Shown: piece after piece, positions 1,476 to 30,677 of the stretch
Layout of the letters: the number at the start of each line of letters is the position of its first letter
Numbering within the stretch: position 1 is the stretch's first letter
Notes under the pieces: model-generated
What the model was told of the DNA's origin: nothing
The model's database searches: none
The model's input: only the letters and a program-made list of their open reading frames with translations
Translations under genes and position numbers: made by a program
From: Minisyncoccota bacterium
Lineage (GTDB): Bacteria; Patescibacteriota; Minisyncoccia; UBA6257; Colwellbacteraceae
Reading direction: 5' to 3'
NCBI GenBank assembly: GCA_036517755.1
Contig: DATDUH010000010.1
Location: 1 to 33,701, forward strand
DNA: 33,701 nucleotides

Positions 1476-1484
1476 TCCAGGCTC

Positions 1485-1513
1485 ATTATAAAGGGCGAAC
1501 CCCATCTCCTCAA
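1485..1513 (-). promoter_or_regulatory. Candidate sigma70-type promoter for dnaE: -35 TTGAGG (1513-1508), 17-nt spacer, -10 TATAAT (1490-1485)
   Basis: Motifs read on the minus strand. The -10 ends only 9 nt before the dnaE ATG. The -35 lies inside the left boundary repeat of the island. Confidence 0.35.
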
Positions 1514-1558
1514 GAACGCCCTCCGCTCGGATAAATAAAGCCTTGAGATGTTCTCTAC
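1507..1558. repeat. Left boundary repeat block of the rnc-dnaE island
   Basis: Three segments are reverse complements of the right block: 1507-1517 tcctcaagaac (3094-3104), 1521-1530 ctccgctcgg (3079-3088) and 1531-1537 ataaata (3071-3077). 1546-1558 agatgttctctac is the exact reverse complement of 2933-2945. Confidence 0.8.
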
Positions 1559-1571
1559 AGAGATAGGGTTT

Positions 1572-1602
1572 TTGACATCGACTTTACAAGAATGTCTATA
1601 TC
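1572..1602 (+). promoter_or_regulatory. Candidate promoter of the high-GC micro-operon: -35 TTGACA (1572-1577), weak -10 (TCTATA 1595-1600 or TATATC 1597-1602)
   Basis: Perfect -35 hexamer and an AT-rich -10 region at 17-19 nt spacing, about 70 nt upstream of the first SD/ATG. It diverges from the dnaE promoter. Confidence 0.35.
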
Positions 1603-1670
1603 TGGCTTAATAATATTATTGAGGCAAAGGATCTCAACAGTACCTTGATTCATTGAGGGGAGGTGAGAAC

Positions 1671-1841
1671 ATGAGAGTAAACTCAAGGCCTACCGTCGTG
1701 GATCTGGCCGACTACAGACACAAGAAGGCCGAAGAGATCCGCGCCGAGGTCCGGAGGGCTCATCGAGGACATCGCCCTTCGGACAACTGTGGCTGCGTTA
1801 AACGCTTACATGAACGCTTGCGGATACTCGAAAGCCGGTGA
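1671..1841 (+). CDS. Hypothetical small basic protein (56 aa), ORF A of the high-GC cassette
   Basis: SD GGAGGTG at 1659-1665 lies 5 nt before ATG 1671. Sequence: MRVNSRPTVVDLADYRHKKAEEIRAEVRRAHRGHRPSDNCGCVKRLHERLRILESR. I recognise no family. Confidence 0.5.
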   Translation: MRVNSRPTVVDLADYRHKKAEEIRAEVRRAHRGHRPSDNCGCVKRLHERLRILESR

Positions 1842-1890
1842 GCCACATAGCGATGCGGCGAGAGCGGCTTCATTATCTGAGGAGGTGAAC

Positions 1891-2106
1891 ATGGCAATCT
1901 ACACCAGAAGTGATGAACTGGATCAGGCGGTGATCGCGGCTGTGCGCGACGCGGGTCATCCACTCCATCCCCGCGAGATCGTCGCTCGGGTCGAGAAGCA
2001 ACTCGAGACCAGAGAGCAGGACATCAGGTTCTGCATCATGGACCTGGAGAATCGCGGCCTGCTCGAGATGACCGCAGACCTGACAACGGGTCTGCCGTCG
2101 AGATGA
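1891..2106 (+). CDS. Hypothetical 71-aa protein, possibly a winged-helix DNA-binding fold, ORF B of the cassette
   Basis: SD GGAGGTG at 1881-1887 lies 3 nt before ATG 1891. Third-position GC is high. Sequence: MAIYTRSDELDQAVIAAVRDAGHPLHPREIVARVEKQLETREQDIRFCIMDLENRGLLEMT... The helix/turn/wing pattern is my reading only. Confidence 0.55.
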   Translation: MAIYTRSDELDQAVIAAVRDAGHPLHPREIVARVEKQLETREQDIRFCIMDLENRGLLEMTADLTTGLPSR

Positions 2107-2115
2107 GGAGGTGTT

Positions 2116-2316
2116 ATGTGCCAGTCGTGGTACGCTGAGCAGGATTTCGTCATCTGGATGGAGGCTCGAGCCGCGGAGCAAGGGCATCGTCCAGGGTGCA
2201 TCGGTATCCGCGCCCTCTGCAGCTGTCCAGGCATGGACAGGGATGTTGCGCCTGACGAAGTTCGGGCGACAAGGGCGGAAGACGTCGAGAGCGCCTCTGT
2301 GCTACGCGGCATGTAG
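2116..2316 (+). CDS. Hypothetical Cys-rich 66-aa protein, ORF C of the cassette
   Basis: SD GGAGGTG at 2107-2113 lies 2 nt before ATG 2116. By eye this frame has higher GC3 than the overlapping 2111 frame. No recognisable family. Confidence 0.45.
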   Translation: MCQSWYAEQDFVIWMEARAAEQGHRPGCIGIRALCSCPGMDRDVAPDEVRATRAEDVESASVLRGM

Positions 2317-2335
2317 ATGCAAAGGAGGTGAACTG

Positions 2336-2665
2336 ATGTACACGGAGACCTGTCCTAACTGCGGACACGAACAGTTCTGCGTGCCTGGCCAGTCGGTCAA
2401 CTGCTCCAAGTGCGGCTCCACGATCGGCGGCTACAGGAAGGAGCCACAGGAAGGAGTGAGAACGGTGAGCTGGAGTGAGCTACTCGGCCCGGAGATCGCG
2501 GTCATCGAGATCGAGCGTCTTGAAGACCAGCGGCTTCCGCGCATCCGTCTGCGCAAGGGCAAGGACTGGGGGACGGGCCTGATGGGTCCAGTCCTGTTCG
2601 AGCTCAGACTCAGCCGGCGTTGGCCCTGGATAGGGTTCGCTCGACCGGCCAGACAGCCATCATAA
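2336..2665 (+). CDS. Hypothetical zinc-ribbon protein (109 aa), ORF D of the cassette
   Basis: SD GGAGGTG at 2324-2330 lies 5 nt before ATG 2336. The N-terminus MYTETCPNCGHEQFCVPGQSVNCSKCGS has a CPNC-x13-CSKC motif. It is the in-frame downstream part of track ORF 2111..2665. Confidence 0.6.
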   Translation: MYTETCPNCGHEQFCVPGQSVNCSKCGSTIGGYRKEPQEGVRTVSWSELLGPEIAVIEIERLEDQRLPRIRLRKGKDWGTGLMGPVLFELRLSRRWPWIGFARPARQPS

Positions 2666-2666
2666 C

Positions 2667-2725
2667 GGCCCGTACGTGGAAGTGTGGGAAACCCACACGC
2701 TCCACGTGCGGGCCTTCCCATTTTT
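2667..2725 (+). terminator. Long intrinsic terminator hairpin closing the cassette
   Basis: ggcccgtacgtggaagtgtggg (2667-2688), loop aaa, then cccacacgctccacgtgcgggcc (2692-2714). The ~22-bp stem has one wobble and one bulge. It is followed by ttcccattttt and begins 2 nt after the ORF D stop. Confidence 0.75.
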
Positions 2726-2743
2726 AAACACCTATAGTTGATT

Positions 2744-2765
2744 GGCTAATTCGTGCGAATTGGCC
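2744..2765. repeat. 22-bp near-palindrome ggctaattcg-tg-cgaattggcc (one mismatch)
   Basis: Read directly. A related word, ctggctaatt, recurs at 2824-2833. Confidence 0.7.
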
Positions 2766-2779
2766 CATGGATAAAAAAC

Positions 2780-2813
2780 AATATTCTAATATTCTGCAGA
2801 ATATTAGAATATT
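2780..2813. repeat. Perfect 34-bp palindrome AATATTCTAATATTCTGCAGAATATTAGAATATT
   Basis: Its reverse complement is identical. It is built from a tandem AATATTCT pair and its mirror image around CTGCAG. Confidence 0.95.
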
Positions 2814-2840
2814 ATATTCAAGACTGGCTAATTACATATC

Positions 2841-2866
2841 TAGGTACGTACCTATTTACGTAAATA
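2841..2866. repeat. Two abutting perfect 14-bp palindromes, TAGGTACGTACCTA (2841-2854) and TATTTACGTAAATA (2853-2866)
   Basis: Both are self-complementary, both centre on TACGTA, and they overlap by 2 nt. Confidence 0.95.
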
Positions 2867-2876
2867 AATTGTAGTA

Positions 2877-2902
2877 CTGCTCAGTAGCATGCTACTGAGC
2901 AG
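2877..2902. repeat. Perfect 26-bp palindrome CTGCTCAGTAGCATGCTACTGAGCAG
   Basis: Its reverse complement is identical. Centre is GCATGC. Confidence 0.95.
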
Positions 2903-2920
2903 CGAGAACGAACTGGGCGA

Positions 2921-3113
2921 GAACTTATTTCCGTAGAGAACATCTTGAAACGAGGCAAATAAATAGTGAGTGAGGGTACTAAGAAGTAGAGGCGCGAACA
3001 TTGTCTGAATCCCGAGCAGACCGAGGTTGAGTTTGAGAGCGGCTCCACCCTTCTTTAGCCGAACGAACGCTATTTATTCCGAGCGGAGAGCCTGTTCTTG
3101 AGGAAATAAGTTC
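2921..3113. repeat. Right boundary repeat block: an imperfect ~45-nt inverted pair (2921-2966 and 3070-3113) around a 103-nt spacer
   Basis: Exact inverted matches: gaacttatttcc 2921-2932 with ggaaataagttc 3102-3113, and aataaatag 2958-2966 with ctatttatt 3070-3078. The middle parts are diverged and share agaaca. Confidence 0.8.
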
Positions 3114-3119
3114 GAGCTC

Positions 3120-3809
3120 CTATATCCGCCGCATTTCCCTCAAGAGGTTTTGGGCCGCTTCAGTTTCAGCTTCTTGCTTGGATTTGCCCTCACCTTCGGA
3201 CTTCAGTTCTTCACCGAAATAGAGGCCAACCCTAAAAATCCTTTCATGGGCAGGACCAGACTCTGAAAGCACTCGATAAGTCGGCGTTACCCTGTGTTCA
3301 CTTTGAGCCGACTCCTGGATTAGGCTTTTCGGATCTTTACCGCCTTCCTCAATTAGGGCCTCGACTCGAGAGAAAATAAAATCATTAATGAATTGTTTGG
3401 CTCTGGAGTATCCCTGGTCGAGATAAATAGCTCCGATTAGGGCTTCGACCGCATCAGCCGAGATGGTCTCCCTGGCTCGACCCGAGAAATTTTTAGTTTC
3501 CCCGCGAGATAAAAGAATTTTTTGATCGAGTTCAATTTCGGTAGCTAAGAGAGCCAGGGTTTTGGTATTGACGAGACCCGCTCGGTAGAGAGTTAGTTCT
3601 CCCTCCTCCTTAGTGGGGAAGTGATTAAAGAGCGCTTCGGTGACAGCTAGTTCTAAGACAGCATCGCCCAGAAACTCCAGGCGTTCATTGTTGCCATATT
3701 GCCATTTCGGATTTTCATTCAAATAAGAGCGGTGAGTCAGGGCTTCTTTAAGAAGACGAAGATCCCTAAAACTTAATTTGATTTTTTCCTGAAGAATCTC
3801 AAGCTCCAT
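3120..3809 (-). CDS. rnc: Ribonuclease III
   Basis: 229-aa ORF with the RNase III signature NERLEFLGDAVLELAV and a C-terminal dsRBD-like region. Confidence 0.95.
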   Translation of the reverse strand: MELEILQEKIKLSFRDLRLLKEALTHRSYLNENPKWQYGNNERLEFLGDAVLELAVTEALFNHFPTKEEGELTLYRAGLVNTKTLALLATEIELDQKILLSRGETKNFSGRARETISADAVEALIGAIYLDQGYSRAKQFINDFIFSRVEALIEEGGKDPKSLIQESAQSEHRVTPTYRVLSESGPAHERIFRVGLYFGEELKSEGEGKSKQEAETEAAQNLLREMRRI

Positions 3810-12153: not shown

Positions 12154-12158
12154 ACGAA

Positions 12159-12186
12159 AGAGTGCCTTTTTAGGGGCGCTCTTTTG
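12159..12186 (+). terminator. Intrinsic terminator after rplL
   Basis: agagtgcc / ggcgctct stem (one G-T pair) followed by ttttgattt. Confidence 0.55.
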
Positions 12187-12927: not shown

Positions 12928-12971
12928 GAAGGTCTGACTTCCCAAGGTTTCTTAATTAGTAATATAGTTTA

Positions 12972-13003
12972 GAAAACGGGGCCTTAGCCCCGTTTTCTTT
13001 TTT
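12972..13003 (+). terminator. Intrinsic terminator
   Basis: gaaaacggggc-ctta-gccccgttttc perfect stem followed by tttttt. Confidence 0.8.
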
Positions 13004-13140
13004 AAAAGCAGGGAGTGGATAATGTGTTGATAAGTAAGGCGGATGAGTTTCTAATTTCGGCTCAAATAAATACTTTTCGTGTTTTTAATCGAAAAGAAAT
13101 TTCTTTGACTCAAGATCGGGTTGTGGCTTAAGATTACTTA

Positions 13141-13195
13141 AAAGTGGGGAAAAGTGGATAAGTATGTGGAAAACCCCACTTTTCTGTGGATAAGT
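13141..13195 (+). promoter_or_regulatory. Direct-repeat GTGG boxes upstream of mraZ (putative MraZ operator)
   Basis: AAAGTGGGGA, AAAGTGGATA, AGTATGTGGA, then TTTCTGTGGATAAG. GTGG occurs at 13144, 13154, 13166 and 13186. MraZ is known to bind direct repeats in its own promoter region. Confidence 0.45.
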
Positions 13196-13212
13196 CTCGA
13201 GATTATAAGATT

Positions 13213-13644
13213 ATGCTGATCGGGGAATTTCATCACAGTCTTGATCTTAAGGGGAGAATCGCCATCCCCTCAAAATTCAGAAGCAAAATTTCTGGCGGGG
13301 CTATCATTACCCGCGGCCTTGATCATTGCCTTTTCGTTTTTACTAAAAAGGATTGGCAAGTCTTAGCTCAAAAATTAATTAGTCTGCCGCTGGCCCAAGC
13401 TAATTCCCGGGCTTTTGTCAGGTTGATGCTGGCTGGCGCGGCTGATGCGGACCTTGACTCCCAGGGGAGAATTTTGGTTCCTGATTATTTAAGGAGTTAC
13501 GCCGGTCTCAAGAAATCCGCTAGTGTGATCGGCGTCTATAACCGATTGGAAATCTGGGATGACCGCACCTGGGAGCAGTATCGAAAGAAAACTGAAGGCT
13601 CCTCGGATGAGATTGCGGAGAAGATGGCTGATCTGGGGATTTAG
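13213..13644 (+). CDS. mraZ: Transcriptional regulator MraZ (ATG 13213 preferred; the track uses GTG 13186)
   Basis: MLIGEFHHSLDLKGRIAIPSKFR and a second DSQGRILVP repeat are the two MraZ/SpoVT-AbrB halves. Confidence 0.9.
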   Translation: MLIGEFHHSLDLKGRIAIPSKFRSKISGGAIITRGLDHCLFVFTKKDWQVLAQKLISLPLAQANSRAFVRLMLAGAADADLDSQGRILVPDYLRSYAGLKKSASVIGVYNRLEIWDDRTWEQYRKKTEGSSDEIAEKMADLGI

Positions 13645-28570: not shown

Positions 28571-29407
28571 ATGCTAAGCACAAAAGAGGGTTTTGATCTC
28601 GATGCCTTAATTAATGAGGCGTTAGATCAGGCCGATAAAAGAACCAGGCGGATTGTGAGCCATCGTTACGGGCTCGAGGCACCGGAGACAAAGACTCTGG
28701 CTAAGCTGGGGGATGAATATGGTTTGACGAGAGAGCGGGTCAGACAGATTGAAGCCGCTTTTCTTGATTCGATTAGGGCTAAAATTAAGGCTCACGAGGA
28801 AGCCGCCAAATTTCTTAAACTGGTGGAGCAGTATCTTGCCGATGTCGGGGGACTCCGGCGAAGTGATTTTTTGGCTCGTGACTTTTCCATTATTCTCGAC
28901 GATAAACGCGGCGAAGATTTGCTTTACAACCAACTTCATTTTCTGGCTAAAGTTTTGGAAGAGCCCCTAATTAATCGACCGAACGAAGACTGGCATCTTG
29001 TTTGGTACACCGAACCAAAAGTTTTGGAGAGAGCCGAAGAACTGGTTCGCCATCTTTTGAACCTGGATAAACACGATTTTAATCGATATCTTGCAATTGT
29101 CGTTCCTAAATTTAAATTACCCGAACCCTTGATCGTAAACTATTTGACTCTTTCGAAAAGATTTGCCACCGGCCCCTACGGCGATTTGGGGGCTGATCAC
29201 TGGGTCCACGTGGCGCCGAAAACAGTGCGCGATAAGGCCTACCTCGTGCTCGAGAAATCTTCGAACCCGCTTCACTTTACCGAAATTGCTCGTTTAGTTA
29301 ATAGTTTAGATGAGCGGAAAAGGGCTCCGGCGACGGTTCACAATGAGTTAATTCGTGATCCGCGGTTTGTTTTGGTAGGTCGGGGCACTTACGCCATCAA
29401 TGATTGA
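28571..29407 (+). CDS. DNA-binding protein with an N-terminal sigma-70 region-4-like HTH and a C-terminal HARE-HTH-like domain
   Basis: N-terminus RRIVSHRYGLEAPETKTLAKLGDEYGLTRERVRQIEAAFLDSIR matches the sigma region 4.2 pattern. C-terminus HFTEIARLVNSL...ATVHNELIRDPRFVLVGRGTYAI matches the HARE-HTH pattern seen in the RNAP delta subunit. Both calls rest on motif recall, not a search. Confidence 0.55.
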   Translation: MLSTKEGFDLDALINEALDQADKRTRRIVSHRYGLEAPETKTLAKLGDEYGLTRERVRQIEAAFLDSIRAKIKAHEEAAKFLKLVEQYLADVGGLRRSDFLARDFSIILDDKRGEDLLYNQLHFLAKVLEEPLINRPNEDWHLVWYTEPKVLERAEELVRHLLNLDKHDFNRYLAIVVPKFKLPEPLIVNYLTLSKRFATGPYGDLGADHWVHVAPKTVRDKAYLVLEKSSNPLHFTEIARLVNSLDERKRAPATVHNELIRDPRFVLVGRGTYAIND

Positions 29408-30677
29408 GGAACTTCTTGATTCAGCCTTCGGATCTGTCGCGTCGCTTTGGTGGTTTATTTTACCAGTGGCCGCGGCCGCGATTTTTCGCGAGTGGTGGCT
29501 CGTTGATATTACCCGGGAATACATTTCGCGGATCGAGTGGATTCTCTTAGAGATTAAAGTTCCGCGAGAGAACTTAAAATCAGCCAAGGCGATGGAGTAT
29601 GTTTTTGCCTCCATCTACGGCACTCACAGCGGCGGCATTAAGCGAAAAGATCGTTATTTTAAAGGCAAGGTCGAGGACTGGATGTCGTTTGAAATCGTGG
29701 GTGAAGCCTCGGGCGTTCATTTTTATGTTCGTCTTCCAGCCAGCTATCGGAAGCTCTTTGAAACGGCATTCTTTTCCCAGTATCCGGAGGCCGAGATTGA
29801 AGTAGTCCCTGATTATGTGAATAAACTTCCTCAGATTTTACCAAACGAGAAATACGATATCTTCGGCACTGATTTTGTCTTAGCCAAAGAGGATGCCTAC
29901 CCTATCAAGACTTATCCATCCTTCGAGGCTAATCTGGAAGAGGAGATGATCGATCCGATTGCGGCAATTGTTGAGTCGGTCGCAAACCTAAAAGCAGATG
30001 AGATGCTTCTCCTCCAACTTTTAGCCAGACCAGCCGGCGACGATTGGGTTAAAAAAGGGAAAGAAGAAGTCGATAAATTATCTGGTCGAAAAAAAGAAGA
30101 AAAGAAAAATCGAGTTGGCTCAATCAGCGAATTTCTGAAGAATTTTATAGCGGCGCCGGTTAAGGTGCCGGAATGGGGTGCTTCTAAAGAAGAAAAAACT
30201 GAGGCACCTCGGTTTACCCCTGGCCAGCAGGATGCCCTGAAGGCGGTTGAAAATAAATTATCTAAGCTTGGCTTCGAAGCCATCTTGAGAGTTATCTATA
30301 TTGACAACCGGGATGCTTTTACGAGCGATAATGTTTCAGCGGCCTTTGGCGCTATTCGGCAGTTTAGCACTCATAATCTGAATGCTTTAAAGCCCAATTT
30401 TAAAACAATGACCGCGGCCACGTTGGTGGGGATAATTTTCCGTAAAGAAAGGCTGGAGAAAAGAAAAAGGTTCCTCTATTGGCATTATCTTCATCGAGAT
30501 ATGCCCCAACCAGTGCCGATTCGATTCGGTTTGCAGCTAAAAACCGCGGTTTTGAGTGTTGAAGAACTGGCCACGGTTTACCACTTGCCGACCACTGCCG
30601 TGACGCCGGCGAGAGTAAGAGCGCTTGAGGCGAGAAAGGGTGAGGCGCCGATTAACCTTCCGGTCATAGAGGAGTAG
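29400..30677 (+). CDS. Hypothetical membrane-anchored protein (425 aa), probable partner of the downstream ATPase
   Basis: One N-terminal TM helix (SLWWFILPVAAAAIF), then a large soluble region with a K/E-rich linker. ATGATTGA overlap with the upstream gene and a 12-nt gap to the downstream ATPase. Confidence 0.6.
   Translation: MIEELLDSAFGSVASLWWFILPVAAAAIFREWWLVDITREYISRIEWILLEIKVPRENLKSAKAMEYVFASIYGTHSGGIKRKDRYFKGKVEDWMSFEIVGEASGVHFYVRLPASYRKLFETAFFSQYPEAEIEVVPDYVNKLPQILPNEKYDIFGTDFVLAKEDAYPIKTYPSFEANLEEEMIDPIAAIVESVANLKADEMLLLQLLARPAGDDWVKKGKEEVDKLSGRKKEEKKNRVGSISEFLKNFIAAPVKVPEWGASKEEKTEAPRFTPGQQDALKAVENKLSKLGFEAILRVIYIDNRDAFTSDNVSAAFGAIRQFSTHNLNALKPNFKTMTAATLVGIIFRKERLEKRKRFLYWHYLHRDMPQPVPIRFGLQLKTAVLSVEELATVYHLPTTAVTPARVRALEARKGEAPINLPVIEE

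What the first reader, a model, noticed from the sequence alone, without database searches (positions are those of the whole stretch)
2744..2902. Dense array of five different dyad symmetries, four of them perfect (34, 14, 14, 26 bp), in an AT-rich 160-bp tract
The tract lies directly downstream of the cassette terminator. It contains a 22-bp near-palindrome (2744-2765), a perfect 34-bp palindrome made of tandem AATATTCT units (2780-2813), two abutting perfect 14-bp palindromes both centred on TACGTA (2841-2854 and 2853-2866), and a perfect 26-bp palindrome (2877-2902). A perfect 34-mer alone is far beyond chance in 34 kb. No ORF, tRNA or terminator explains them, since they are AT-rich and lack T tails. 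They could be operator sites for dimeric DNA binders, possibly the cassette's own winged-helix or zinc-ribbon proteins. Other options are a replication or transfer origin-like region (single-strand origins and nick sites are hairpin-rich), or cruciform recombination sites. The several distinct half-site sequences suggest more than one binding partner.
Basis: seen in the sequence. Interest (0 to 1): 0.7.

Follow-up and report, generated by a model that had tools for sequence, protein, structure and literature searches.

The report
Perfect hairpin cluster beside foreign cassette
A real and statistically extreme cluster of perfect DNA palindromes lies at the edge of a small foreign gene cassette wedged between two housekeeping genes of an uncultured groundwater bacterium. 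It most likely acts as a hairpin barrier or terminator between converging genes, not as a new kind of system, and its function is not shown.

Summary
The palindromes exist exactly as described: 34, 14, 14 and 26 bp perfect, plus one near-palindrome. They are far beyond chance and identical in 16 or more independent assemblies, so they are not an artefact.

The host is a Colwellbacteria-like (CPR) genome. Relatives have rnc followed directly by dnaE, 47-90 nt apart. Here a 1.6-kb insert sits between them. It holds a 60 % GC, four-ORF orphan cassette on the opposite strand, with its own promoter/leader and a strong terminator. After that come the 36 % GC palindrome tract and a 190-nt inverted copy of the dnaE-promoter region.

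One other species (L019) has the same promoter and terminator "frame" in the same slot, but with different cargo and no AT-rich tract.

On the minus strand it is a 17-bp hairpin (-17 kcal/mol) followed at once by GUUUUUU. That is an intrinsic-terminator-like signal for nusB-rnc, back-to-back with the cassette terminator.

The other palindromes have no recurring half-sites, no promoter, no partner gene (Rep, relaxase, recombinase, Tas) and no homologues. Best reading: a young, lineage-specific hairpin spacer or insulator, probably built by fold-back duplication. Operators or an ssDNA/recombination site are not excluded.

The parts
1493..1570 (.). Left inverted-repeat arm. It overlaps the -35 (TTGAGG, 1508-1513) and the spacer of the dnaE promoter. 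On its own it folds into a 73-nt hairpin closed by AACCCCATCTC / GAGATAGGGTT.
   Evidence: The outer part is homologous to the native rnc-dnaE spacer of L018 and L019.
1576..1665 (+). Conserved 5' module of the cassette (promoter/leader plus Shine-Dalgarno). It is shared with the L019 cassette. It contains the 12-bp palindrome AATAATATTATT (1609-1620).
   Evidence: alignment; 81.7 % over 82 nt.
1671..2665 (+). Four tightly packed orphan ORFs, 60 % GC, each preceded by GGAGG-type Shine-Dalgarno sequences: A 1671-1841 (56 aa), B 1891-2106 (71 aa, weak wHTH hints), C 2116-2316 (66 aa), D 2336-2665 (109 aa, N-terminal zinc ribbon).
2667..2725 (+). Cassette intrinsic terminator: a 21-bp GC-rich compound hairpin (-43 kcal/mol) followed by TTCCCATTTTT. 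It is conserved in L019.
2741..2768 (.). Near-palindrome ATTGGCTAATTCG-tg-CGAATTGGCCCAT. The motif GAYTGGCTAATT recurs in direct orientation at 2822-2833.
   Evidence: I6, D2.
2773..2818 (-). The 34-bp perfect palindrome (2780-2813; 22-nt arms at 91 % when extended) plus the T6 tail on the minus strand (2773-2778). This is an intrinsic-terminator-like hairpin facing the nusB-rnc transcription unit.
   Evidence: 17-bp stem, -17.3 kcal/mol, then GUUUUUU.
2841..2866 (.). Two overlapping perfect 14-bp palindromes centred on TACGTA. They are embedded in a 38-bp imperfect dyad (2829-2866).
2877..2902 (.). 26-bp perfect palindrome. Its hairpin is -20.2 kcal/mol and has no U tract on either strand.
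2921..3117 (.). Right inverted-repeat arm: an inverted copy of 1493-1570, interrupted by about 120 nt (2948-3068). It is closed by GAACTTATTTCC / GGAAATAAGTTC and abuts the rnc stop codon (3120-3122). One strain variant lacks 3038-3080.

Best explanation
The tract is the non-coding 3' junction of a lineage-specific, horizontally acquired, moron-like insert (promoter - four small ORFs - terminator). The insert was placed antisense into the ancestral rnc-dnaE spacer of a Colwellbacteria-like CPR bacterium.

It works through structure, not through sequence-specific partners. It is a stack of stable hairpins between two converging transcription units.

The 34-bp palindrome with its U6 tail on the minus strand is the intrinsic terminator of the nusB-rnc transcript. 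It sits back-to-back with the cassette's own plus-strand terminator 47 nt away. Together they keep rnc read-through from running antisense into the cassette, and the reverse.

The remaining perfect palindromes (2 x 14 bp and 26 bp), the near-palindrome, and the larger inverted copy of the dnaE-promoter region are most likely young fold-back or template-switch duplications at this rearrangement-prone junction. At most they add RNA 3'-end or insulator hairpins.

Shown: the anatomy, the statistics, the reproducibility, the derived (inserted) state, and the hairpin-plus-U-tract geometry. Inferred: that termination actually occurs, the mutational origin, and the absence of protein partners.
For: (1) The insert is derived. 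Five relatives (L018, L020, L142, L143, L144) have rnc followed by dnaE after only 47-90 nt. The window has 1.6 kb there.

(2) The setting is convergent. The cassette is on the plus strand and ends in a -43 kcal/mol hairpin plus T-run at 2667-2725. The nusB-rnc unit is on the minus strand and ends at 3120.

(3) On the minus strand the 34-mer forms a 17-bp stem with a 4-nt loop, -17.3 kcal/mol, followed immediately by G-UUUUUU. Two native terminators in the same window are -20.5 and -21.8 kcal/mol.

(4) The half-sites are all different and recur nowhere else in 33.7 kb. The consensus scan finds no promoter-like site in the tract. That fits structure-level rather than sequence-level recognition.

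(5) In bacteria, perfect inverted repeats are about 13-fold enriched just downstream of stop codons, which is attributed to rho-independent termination (PMC13155455, read).

(6) Dyad symmetry occurs at several scales at this one junction: 14-34-bp perfect palindromes, 73-nt and 193-nt hairpin units, and about 80-nt inverted repeats bracketing the 1.6 kb, including an inverted copy of native promoter DNA. Template switching can create perfect hairpins in a single event (10.1101/2023.04.19.537475).

(7) There are zero asymmetric substitutions over 86 palindromic positions, while the nearest species differ by 16-20 %. So the palindromes are either young or actively maintained.

(8) The related cassette in L019 has no AT-rich tract. 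A strain variant tolerates a 43-bp deletion in the right arm. The flanking material is therefore dispensable.
Against: - Only one of the four perfect palindromes has a U tract.
- The 34-mer stem is AU-rich, and the simple terminator scan (which needs at least 3 G-C pairs) did not call it.
- It lies about 310 nt from the rnc stop, further than typical terminators.
- Four or five independent fold-back events within 160 bp is a lot to ask of chance mutation.
- Perfect symmetry is more than termination needs.
- Two adjacent 14-mers with the same TACGTA core look like a tandem operator pair.
- No transcript data and no diverged orthologue of the tract are available, so neither termination nor conservation was tested.
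Confidence: 0.4

Rival explanations
1. Operator or centromere-like array. The dyads are binding sites for dimeric DNA-binding proteins encoded by the cassette: ORF B (a possible wHTH), ORF D (zinc ribbon), and perhaps A and C. One version has looping between the 34-mer (four AATATT units) and the AATAATATTATT palindrome at the cassette promoter.
For: Perfect 14-bp dyads sharing a TACGTA core sit side by side, with centres 12 bp apart. The 34-mer holds four AATATT units, and a fifth lies in a 12-bp palindrome in the cassette promoter module (1609-1620). L019 has different cargo and lacks both. ORF B gives weak wHTH-type hits: Pfam E = 0.1, and the C-terminal part of PADLOC CARF3 at E = 0.002.
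Against: The consensus scan finds no promoter-like site in the tract, and the tract lies beyond the cassette terminator. Four or five unrelated half-sites would need as many proteins. The half-sites recur nowhere else in the window. None of the ORF A-D proteins passes a family threshold. The ORF B model has no structural match, and only the zinc ribbon of ORF D is predicted with confidence. Operators are rarely perfect 26-34-mers.
Confidence: 0.2
2. Pure mutational by-product. The tract is junk junction DNA made by serial fold-back or template-switch duplications during insertion and rearrangement, with no function at all. The U6 after the 34-mer would be coincidental.
For: The tract is lineage-specific and absent from L018, L019, L020, L142 and L144. 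The symmetry is nested, and even native promoter DNA has been copied in inverted orientation. Perfection implies youth. A 43-bp microhomology-flanked deletion is polymorphic right next to the tract. Template switching makes perfect hairpins in one step.
Against: Four perfect palindromes in 125 bp need several independent events. The hairpin plus U6 lies exactly on the strand where the converging rnc transcript needs a stop. The tract is fixed in all sampled strains, although diversity is only about 0.1 %.
Confidence: 0.2
3. Cis-acting site of a mobile or replicating element, with the enzymes supplied in trans. Candidates are a single-strand origin, packaging signal or oriT-like hairpin array, or hairpin recombination sites used to swap cargo in the rnc|dnaE slot.
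For: Two species carry the same promoter and terminator frame with unrelated cargo at the same chromosomal slot. Another relative, closer to the window than that second species, has a clean empty site. The insert is bracketed by roughly 80-nt inverted repeats. Distant homologues of the L019 cargo occur in a phage-like contig. The layout 'terminator then hairpin array' resembles the intergenic region of filamentous phages (from my own knowledge). A TraG/VirD4-like coupling ATPase is encoded 28 kb away.
Against: No Rep, relaxase, integrase or transposase was detected in the window. There are no direct target duplications. No other copy of the arms or palindromes occurs in the window or in any fetched locus. 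There were no hits in phage, plasmid or viral collections. L019 lacks the tract. All assemblies show a single orientation and a single junction.
Confidence: 0.1
4. RNase III substrates. The perfect double-stranded RNA hairpins in the long 3' UTR of rnc are cleaved by the RNase III that the transcript encodes, giving 3'-UTR autoregulation or processing of convergent antisense RNA.
For: The tract begins about 220 nt downstream of the rnc stop on the rnc strand. Its stems are 11-17 bp of perfect duplex.
Against: The feature is absent from all relatives, including the closest one. There is no cleavage-site evidence. Hairpins of this size are ordinary terminator or stabiliser stems.
Confidence: 0.05

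Closest known systems
Rho-independent (intrinsic) terminators arranged back-to-back between convergent genes
   Same: A stable hairpin is followed at once by a U tract (34-mer, minus strand). It sits opposite a canonical terminator for the other strand. Its free energy is in the range of the genome's own terminators.
   Different: The stem is AU-rich and an exact 34-bp palindrome. It lies about 310 nt from the stop codon. Three further perfect palindromes nearby have no U tract.
REP/BIME clusters (repetitive extragenic palindromes) in 3' intergenic regions
   Same: Several hairpin-forming palindromes are packed between convergent genes. The plausible roles are the same: mRNA 3'-end protection and insulation.
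   Different: REPs are families repeated across a genome, each with a shared sequence and a cognate RAYT transposase. Here every palindrome is unique, and none recurs in 33.7 kb.
Phage 'morons' (promoter-gene-terminator units inserted between conserved genes)
   Same: The insert is a self-contained unit with its own promoter/leader and strong terminator. Its GC content is foreign, its cargo is orphan or phage-like, and it sits between two conserved genes. The cargo differs between species within the same frame.
   Different: The host locus is a bacterial housekeeping operon, not a prophage. The insert carries an extra palindrome tract and bracketing inverted repeats.
Template-switch / quasipalindrome-correction mutations that create perfect hairpins
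   Same: They explain perfect base pairing arising in a single event, and inverted copies of adjacent DNA (10.1101/2023.04.19.537475).
   Different: No ancestral sequence is available to polarise any event here, so the mechanism is inferred and not demonstrated.
Phage operator arrays (lambda/434-type) and resolvase res sites
   Same: Several dyad-symmetric sites of 14-34 bp lie within about 150 bp of AT-rich DNA. Two adjacent 14-mers share a core.
   Different: Known arrays repeat one half-site consensus and overlap promoters or accompany a recombinase gene. Here the half-sites are unrelated, the consensus scan finds no promoter-like site, and no recombinase was detected.

Membership tests
Intrinsic (rho-independent) terminator | Stable stem-loop followed within 0-2 nt by a U-rich tract, on the transcribed strand | tested here: met
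   Met for the 34-mer on the minus strand: 17-bp stem, -17.3 kcal/mol, then G-UUUUUU. Not met for the 26-mer, the 14-mers or the near-palindrome, which have no U tract on either strand.
Intrinsic (rho-independent) terminator | Position at the 3' end of a transcription unit, with transcript 3' ends mapping there | not testable with these tools
   The position is downstream of rnc (stop at 3120) on the same strand, but about 310 nt away. No RNA data are available.
REP/BIME repeats | The same palindrome sequence repeated at many intergenic sites of the genome | tested here: not met
   No further copies of any half-site beyond chance in 33.7 kb, nor in the fetched relatives. The rest of the genome could not be searched.
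TIGR-Tas stem-loop arrays | An adjacent Tas gene with a Nop domain, and hairpin units whose stems flank two unpaired spacers with box C/D motifs | tested here: not met
   No Nop-domain hit in any of the ORFs scanned with Pfam. The palindromes pair right through to a 4-nt centre and leave no spacer loops. The definition is taken from 10.64898/2026.09.09.750476.
Chromosomal origin (oriC) | A cluster of DnaA boxes next to an AT-rich unwinding element | tested here: not met
   No TTATCCACA-like box (up to 1 mismatch) lies in or near the tract. The only cluster, at 13014-13193, is upstream of mraZ. The tract is also absent from sister species.
parS / ParB centromere | 16-bp TGTTTCACGTGAAACA-type palindrome | tested here: not met
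   No match with up to 3 mismatches anywhere in the window.
Rolling-circle plasmid/phage origin or oriT | Linked Rep or relaxase (HUH) gene and a nick-site hairpin | tested here: not met
   No Rep or relaxase domain in the ORFs scanned. The cassette ORFs are 56-109 aa with no such hits. Nick-site consensus sequences were not tested.
IS/MITE with terminal inverted repeats | Terminal inverted repeats flanked by a direct target-site duplication, multiple copies, and a transposase in the element or elsewhere | tested here: not met
   Inverted repeats are present, but their outer part is native promoter DNA. No direct duplication was seen, the arms have no other copies, and no transposase was detected in the window.
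Operator array of a phage-type repressor | Several similar dyads overlapping a promoter, and a cognate HTH repressor | tested here: inconclusive
   Two 14-mers share a core, and ORF B has only sub-threshold wHTH hits. The consensus scan finds no promoter-like site in the tract. Binding cannot be tested here.
Integron attC / gene cassette | A tyrosine integrase (IntI) with attI nearby, and promoterless cassettes each ending in an imperfect attC hairpin | tested here: not met
   No integrase was detected in the window. The cassette carries its own conserved promoter/leader module. The attC core motifs were not searched.

The most novel reading that the evidence does not exclude
The rnc|dnaE spacer of this Colwellbacteria clade may be a dedicated slot for a previously undescribed kind of tiny cargo-swapping cassette. 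The cassette would have a fixed promoter/leader and terminator 'frame' and exchangeable orphan cargo. The palindrome tract and the bracketing inverted repeats would be its hairpin-based cis site, for recombination or for single-stranded DNA replication or packaging, used by enzymes supplied in trans, for example by a CPR phage.
Probability: 0.08. Interest if true: 0.65.

Novelty: new member of a known kind. Interest (0 to 1): 0.3.

Why it matters
If the best reading holds, this is an ordinary function (termination or insulation between converging genes) carried out by an unusually clean set of perfect hairpins. Its main value would be as a natural example of how new terminator or hairpin elements can arise in one step by fold-back duplication when foreign DNA lands inside an operon.

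The more interesting by-product is the slot itself. Two CPR species keep the same promoter/terminator frame between rnc and dnaE but carry unrelated orphan cargo, and a third has a clean empty site. That hints at cassette turnover in very small, mobile-element-poor genomes, and it could be followed up with more genomes from this clade.

Tried and rejected
- Assembly or cloning artefact: rejected. At least 16 independent assemblies are identical.
- Known RNA families: only spurious miRNA-hairpin hits far below threshold.
- Similarity of the 1.65-kb insert to phages or plasmids: none.
- Exact or degenerate palindrome patterns, and the leader and terminator patterns, in viral contigs: nothing, or simple AT repeats in giant-virus bins.
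- Leader pattern in metagenome contigs: only the same species, plus two chance hits inside der genes.
- ORF D homologues: orphan in the word-indexed search. The full HMMER search gave only a 68-aa match to its C-terminal half, on a 1.7-kb contig of small ORFs.
- ORFs A-D against Pfam, PHROGs, PADLOC and NCBIfam: nothing above threshold.
- AF2 single-sequence models: ORF B is a two-helix model with no PDB match, and only the zinc ribbon of ORF D is confident.
- oriC, parS and TIGR arrays: tested and not met.
- Strain-level conservation test: no power, since there is only about 0.1 % diversity and 0 changes in the tract.
- Search for intermediate relatives through rnc homologues: only L018 (91 %) and L019 (86 %) are close, and the next are about 70 %.
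- A sequence link between the L019 30-bp palindrome and the window terminator/junction (shared CCCACAC and ACACCTATA): judged too short to build on.

Full report
**1. Observation**

The sequence at 2744-2902 is as described. A scan of the whole window for perfect palindromes lists:
- 2780-2813 (34 bp)
- 2841-2854 and 2853-2866 (14 bp each, both centred on TACGTA)
- 2877-2902 (26 bp)

In 200 first-order Markov simulations the longest palindrome was 12-22 bp. Four of the window's 15 perfect palindromes of 12 bp or more lie within 125 bp. Segment 2720-2925 folds 6-8 standard deviations better than dinucleotide shuffles on either strand.

The same 1.65 kb is present at 99.7-100 % identity in at least 16 assemblies from ENA, JGI and Logan, with no difference in 2726-2920. 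The feature is therefore real and not an assembly artefact. Population diversity is only about 0.1 %, so this identity says nothing about selection.

**2. Context**

The window is a housekeeping region of a Paceibacteria/Colwellbacteria-like CPR genome.
- On the minus strand lie rnhB, nusB, rnc (3120-3809) and dnaE (start at 1475).
- From 5063 onward everything is on the plus strand.

Between dnaE and rnc lie, in order:
- the dnaE promoter (TTGAGG-17-TATAAT);
- a conserved leader module (about 1576-1665);
- four tightly packed ORFs with strong Shine-Dalgarno sites, 60 % GC (1671-2665);
- a -43 kcal/mol hairpin plus T-run (2667-2725);
- the 36 % GC palindrome tract;
- a further 200 nt up to the rnc stop.

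The four ORFs are orphans.
- ORF D has only near-identical copies in 5.8 billion proteins. A full HMMER search adds one 68-aa match to its C-terminal half.
- No Pfam, PHROGs, PADLOC or NCBIfam model is passed.
- The 'winged helix' of ORF B rests on E = 0.1 and E = 0.002 hits only. Its single-sequence model has no PDB match.

**3. The insert is derived, and the slot is reused**

- In L018 (rnc 92 % identical), L020, L142/L143 and L144, rnc is followed by dnaE after only 47-90 nt.
- L019 (Ca. Colwellbacteria, rnc 86 %) has a 1.2-kb, GC-rich insert in the same place and orientation.
- L019 shares the roughly 90-nt leader module (81.7 % identity, the same as the flanking genes) and the terminator (…GCGGGCCTTCCCATTTTTA).
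- Its cargo is unrelated: a 277-aa protein with distant homologues in a phage-like contig, plus a 56-aa Cys-rich protein.
- Flank identities give the tree ((window, L018), L019). So either the frame is old and L018 lost it cleanly, or it was inserted twice at the same site.
- L019 has no AT-rich palindrome tract. Its terminator abuts the rnc stop. It does carry a different, GC-rich 30-bp near-perfect palindrome just upstream of the leader module.

**4. Symmetry at larger scales**

The 1.6 kb is bracketed by inverted repeats: 1504-1531 with 3078-3107, and 1546-1565 with 2926-2945 (chance expectation 0). Aligned by hand, 1493-1570 matches the reverse complement of 2921-2947 plus 3069-3117, with about 120 nt inserted in the right copy.

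The outer part of the left arm is the native dnaE promoter. Its -35 and spacer are homologous to those of L018 and L019. The right arm is therefore an inverted copy of host DNA. It is not a transposon end.

Each arm also closes on itself, with four compensatory differences between the copies:
- left: AACCCCATCTC / GAGATAGGGTT
- right: GAACTTATTTCC / GGAAATAAGTTC

Overall folding of the arms is only marginally better than shuffles (z = -2.1 and -1.3). One strain variant lacks 3038-3080, a deletion between microhomologies. This flank is therefore dispensable. No direct target duplication and no second copy of the arms were found.

**5. What the palindromes can and cannot be**

That does not hold for the 34-mer.
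- A6 at 2773-2778 on the plus strand means that, on the minus strand, the 17-bp hairpin (-17.3 kcal/mol) is followed directly by G-UUUUUU.
- The genome's own terminators at 12971-12998 and 12155-12186 are -20.5 and -21.8 kcal/mol.
- The cassette's terminator has a T-run on the plus strand only.
- The two signals therefore sit back-to-back, 47 nt apart, between converging units.
- Perfect inverted repeats in bacteria are about 13-fold enriched just after stop codons for this reason (PMC13155455).

The 26-mer (-20.2 kcal/mol), the two 14-mers and the near-palindrome have no U tract.

Findings against sequence-specific roles:
- The half-sites are mutually unrelated and occur nowhere else in the window beyond chance.
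- The consensus scan finds no promoter-like site in the tract.
- There are no DnaA boxes there. The only cluster, at 13014-13193, sits upstream of mraZ.
- There is no parS.
- No Rep, relaxase, integrase, transposase or Nop/Tas domain was detected in the scanned ORFs. This also rules out a TIGR stem-loop array, whose units carry unpaired spacers.
- There are no matches in phage, plasmid or viral collections.

**6. Best explanation (confidence about 0.4)**

The tract is a lineage-specific hairpin spacer at the 3' junction of a moron-like foreign insert.
- The 34-mer is the rnc-side intrinsic terminator.
- The other perfect dyads, like the inverted copy of the promoter region, are young products of fold-back or template-switch duplication. 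That mechanism creates perfect hairpins in single events (10.1101/2023.04.19.537475).
- These dyads act at most as additional RNA hairpins.
- Across 86 palindromic positions there is no asymmetric substitution, while the nearest species differ by 16-20 %. The dyads are therefore either much younger than the species split or actively maintained.

Rivals, with rough confidence:
- Operators for cassette proteins (0.2). The AATATT unit also occurs in a 12-bp palindrome in the cassette promoter module, and L019 lacks both.
- Functionless mutational debris (0.2).
- A cis site of a trans-mobilised or ssDNA element (0.1).
- RNase III substrates in the rnc 3' UTR (0.05).

**7. Limits**

No diverged orthologue of the tract exists in the searched collections. 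The rnc homologue search jumps from 86 % to about 70 % identity.

**8. Verdict**

The interpretation remains open but leans toward an ordinary role, carried out by unusually perfect hairpins. Novelty is modest. The reused rnc|dnaE cassette slot is the more interesting lead.

Noticed in passing
window 1476-3119, compared with L019 6691-7944: The rnc|dnaE spacer is a reused insertion slot. L019 (Ca. Colwellbacteria, JACOXB010000010.1) carries the same ~90-nt leader module and the same terminator, but unrelated cargo (277-aa and 56-aa ORFs). L018, L020, L142, L143 and L144 have empty spacers of 47-90 nt.
   Followed up: yes
window 1493-1570 and 2921-3117: Inverted repeats of about 80 nt bracket the whole insert. 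The right arm is an inverted copy of the native dnaE promoter region, interrupted by ~120 nt. Each arm closes on itself, with four compensatory differences between the copies.
   Followed up: partly
window 3038-3080 (missing in L005/L013, ERZ28563641 scaffold_84449): One assembly has a 43-bp deletion in the right arm, flanked by GAG/CGG microhomology. It is either a strain polymorphism or an assembly variant. The palindromes are unchanged in that contig.
   Followed up: partly
window 13014-13193: Five TTATCCACA-like 9-mers (up to 1 mismatch), all on the minus strand, which read as (A/T)GTGGATAA direct repeats on the plus strand. They lie immediately upstream of mraZ (13186-13644). They look like DnaA boxes but may be the MraZ-box repeat array of the mra/dcw promoter.
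   Followed up: partly
window 2852-3001 (minus strand): A 49-aa ATG ORF, MFAPLLLSTLTHYLFASFQDVLYGNKFSPSSFSLLSSMLLSSTTIYLRK. It is hydrophobic, and it reads straight through the 26-bp palindrome (LLSSMLLSS). It has a weak Shine-Dalgarno sequence and no PADLOC hit, so it is probably spurious. A type-I-toxin-like peptide was not excluded.
   Followed up: partly
window 1609-1620 and 1610-1637: The 12-bp perfect palindrome AATAATATTATT lies inside the conserved leader module and shares the AATATT unit of the 34-mer. The same module also scores as a minus-strand promoter (TTGAGA-16-TATTAT) pointing toward dnaE.
   Followed up: partly
window 2740-2751 and 2822-2833: The direct repeat GA(T/C)TGGCTAATT brackets the 34-bp palindrome, with copies 82 bp apart. 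A third, imperfect copy in inverted orientation forms the near-palindrome at 2741-2768.
   Followed up: no
window 30690-32144: A 484-aa TraG/TrwB/VirD4-like type IV coupling-protein ATPase sits next to a 425-aa ORF with no Pfam hit (29400-30677), in an otherwise housekeeping region. No relaxase was seen in the window.
   Followed up: no
L019 7945-11041: dnaE of L019 is split into two overlapping ORFs (184 aa and 866 aa). This could be a frameshift, a sequencing error or a pseudogene in that MAG.
   Followed up: no
L019 7868-7897: A 30-bp near-perfect GC-rich palindrome, ACCCCCACACCTAT-ac-ATAGGTGTGGGGGT, abuts a conserved TTTACA hexamer (a possible -35, my reading) at the upstream end of the L019 cassette's leader module. 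It occupies the position that the left-arm hairpin holds in the window.
   Followed up: partly
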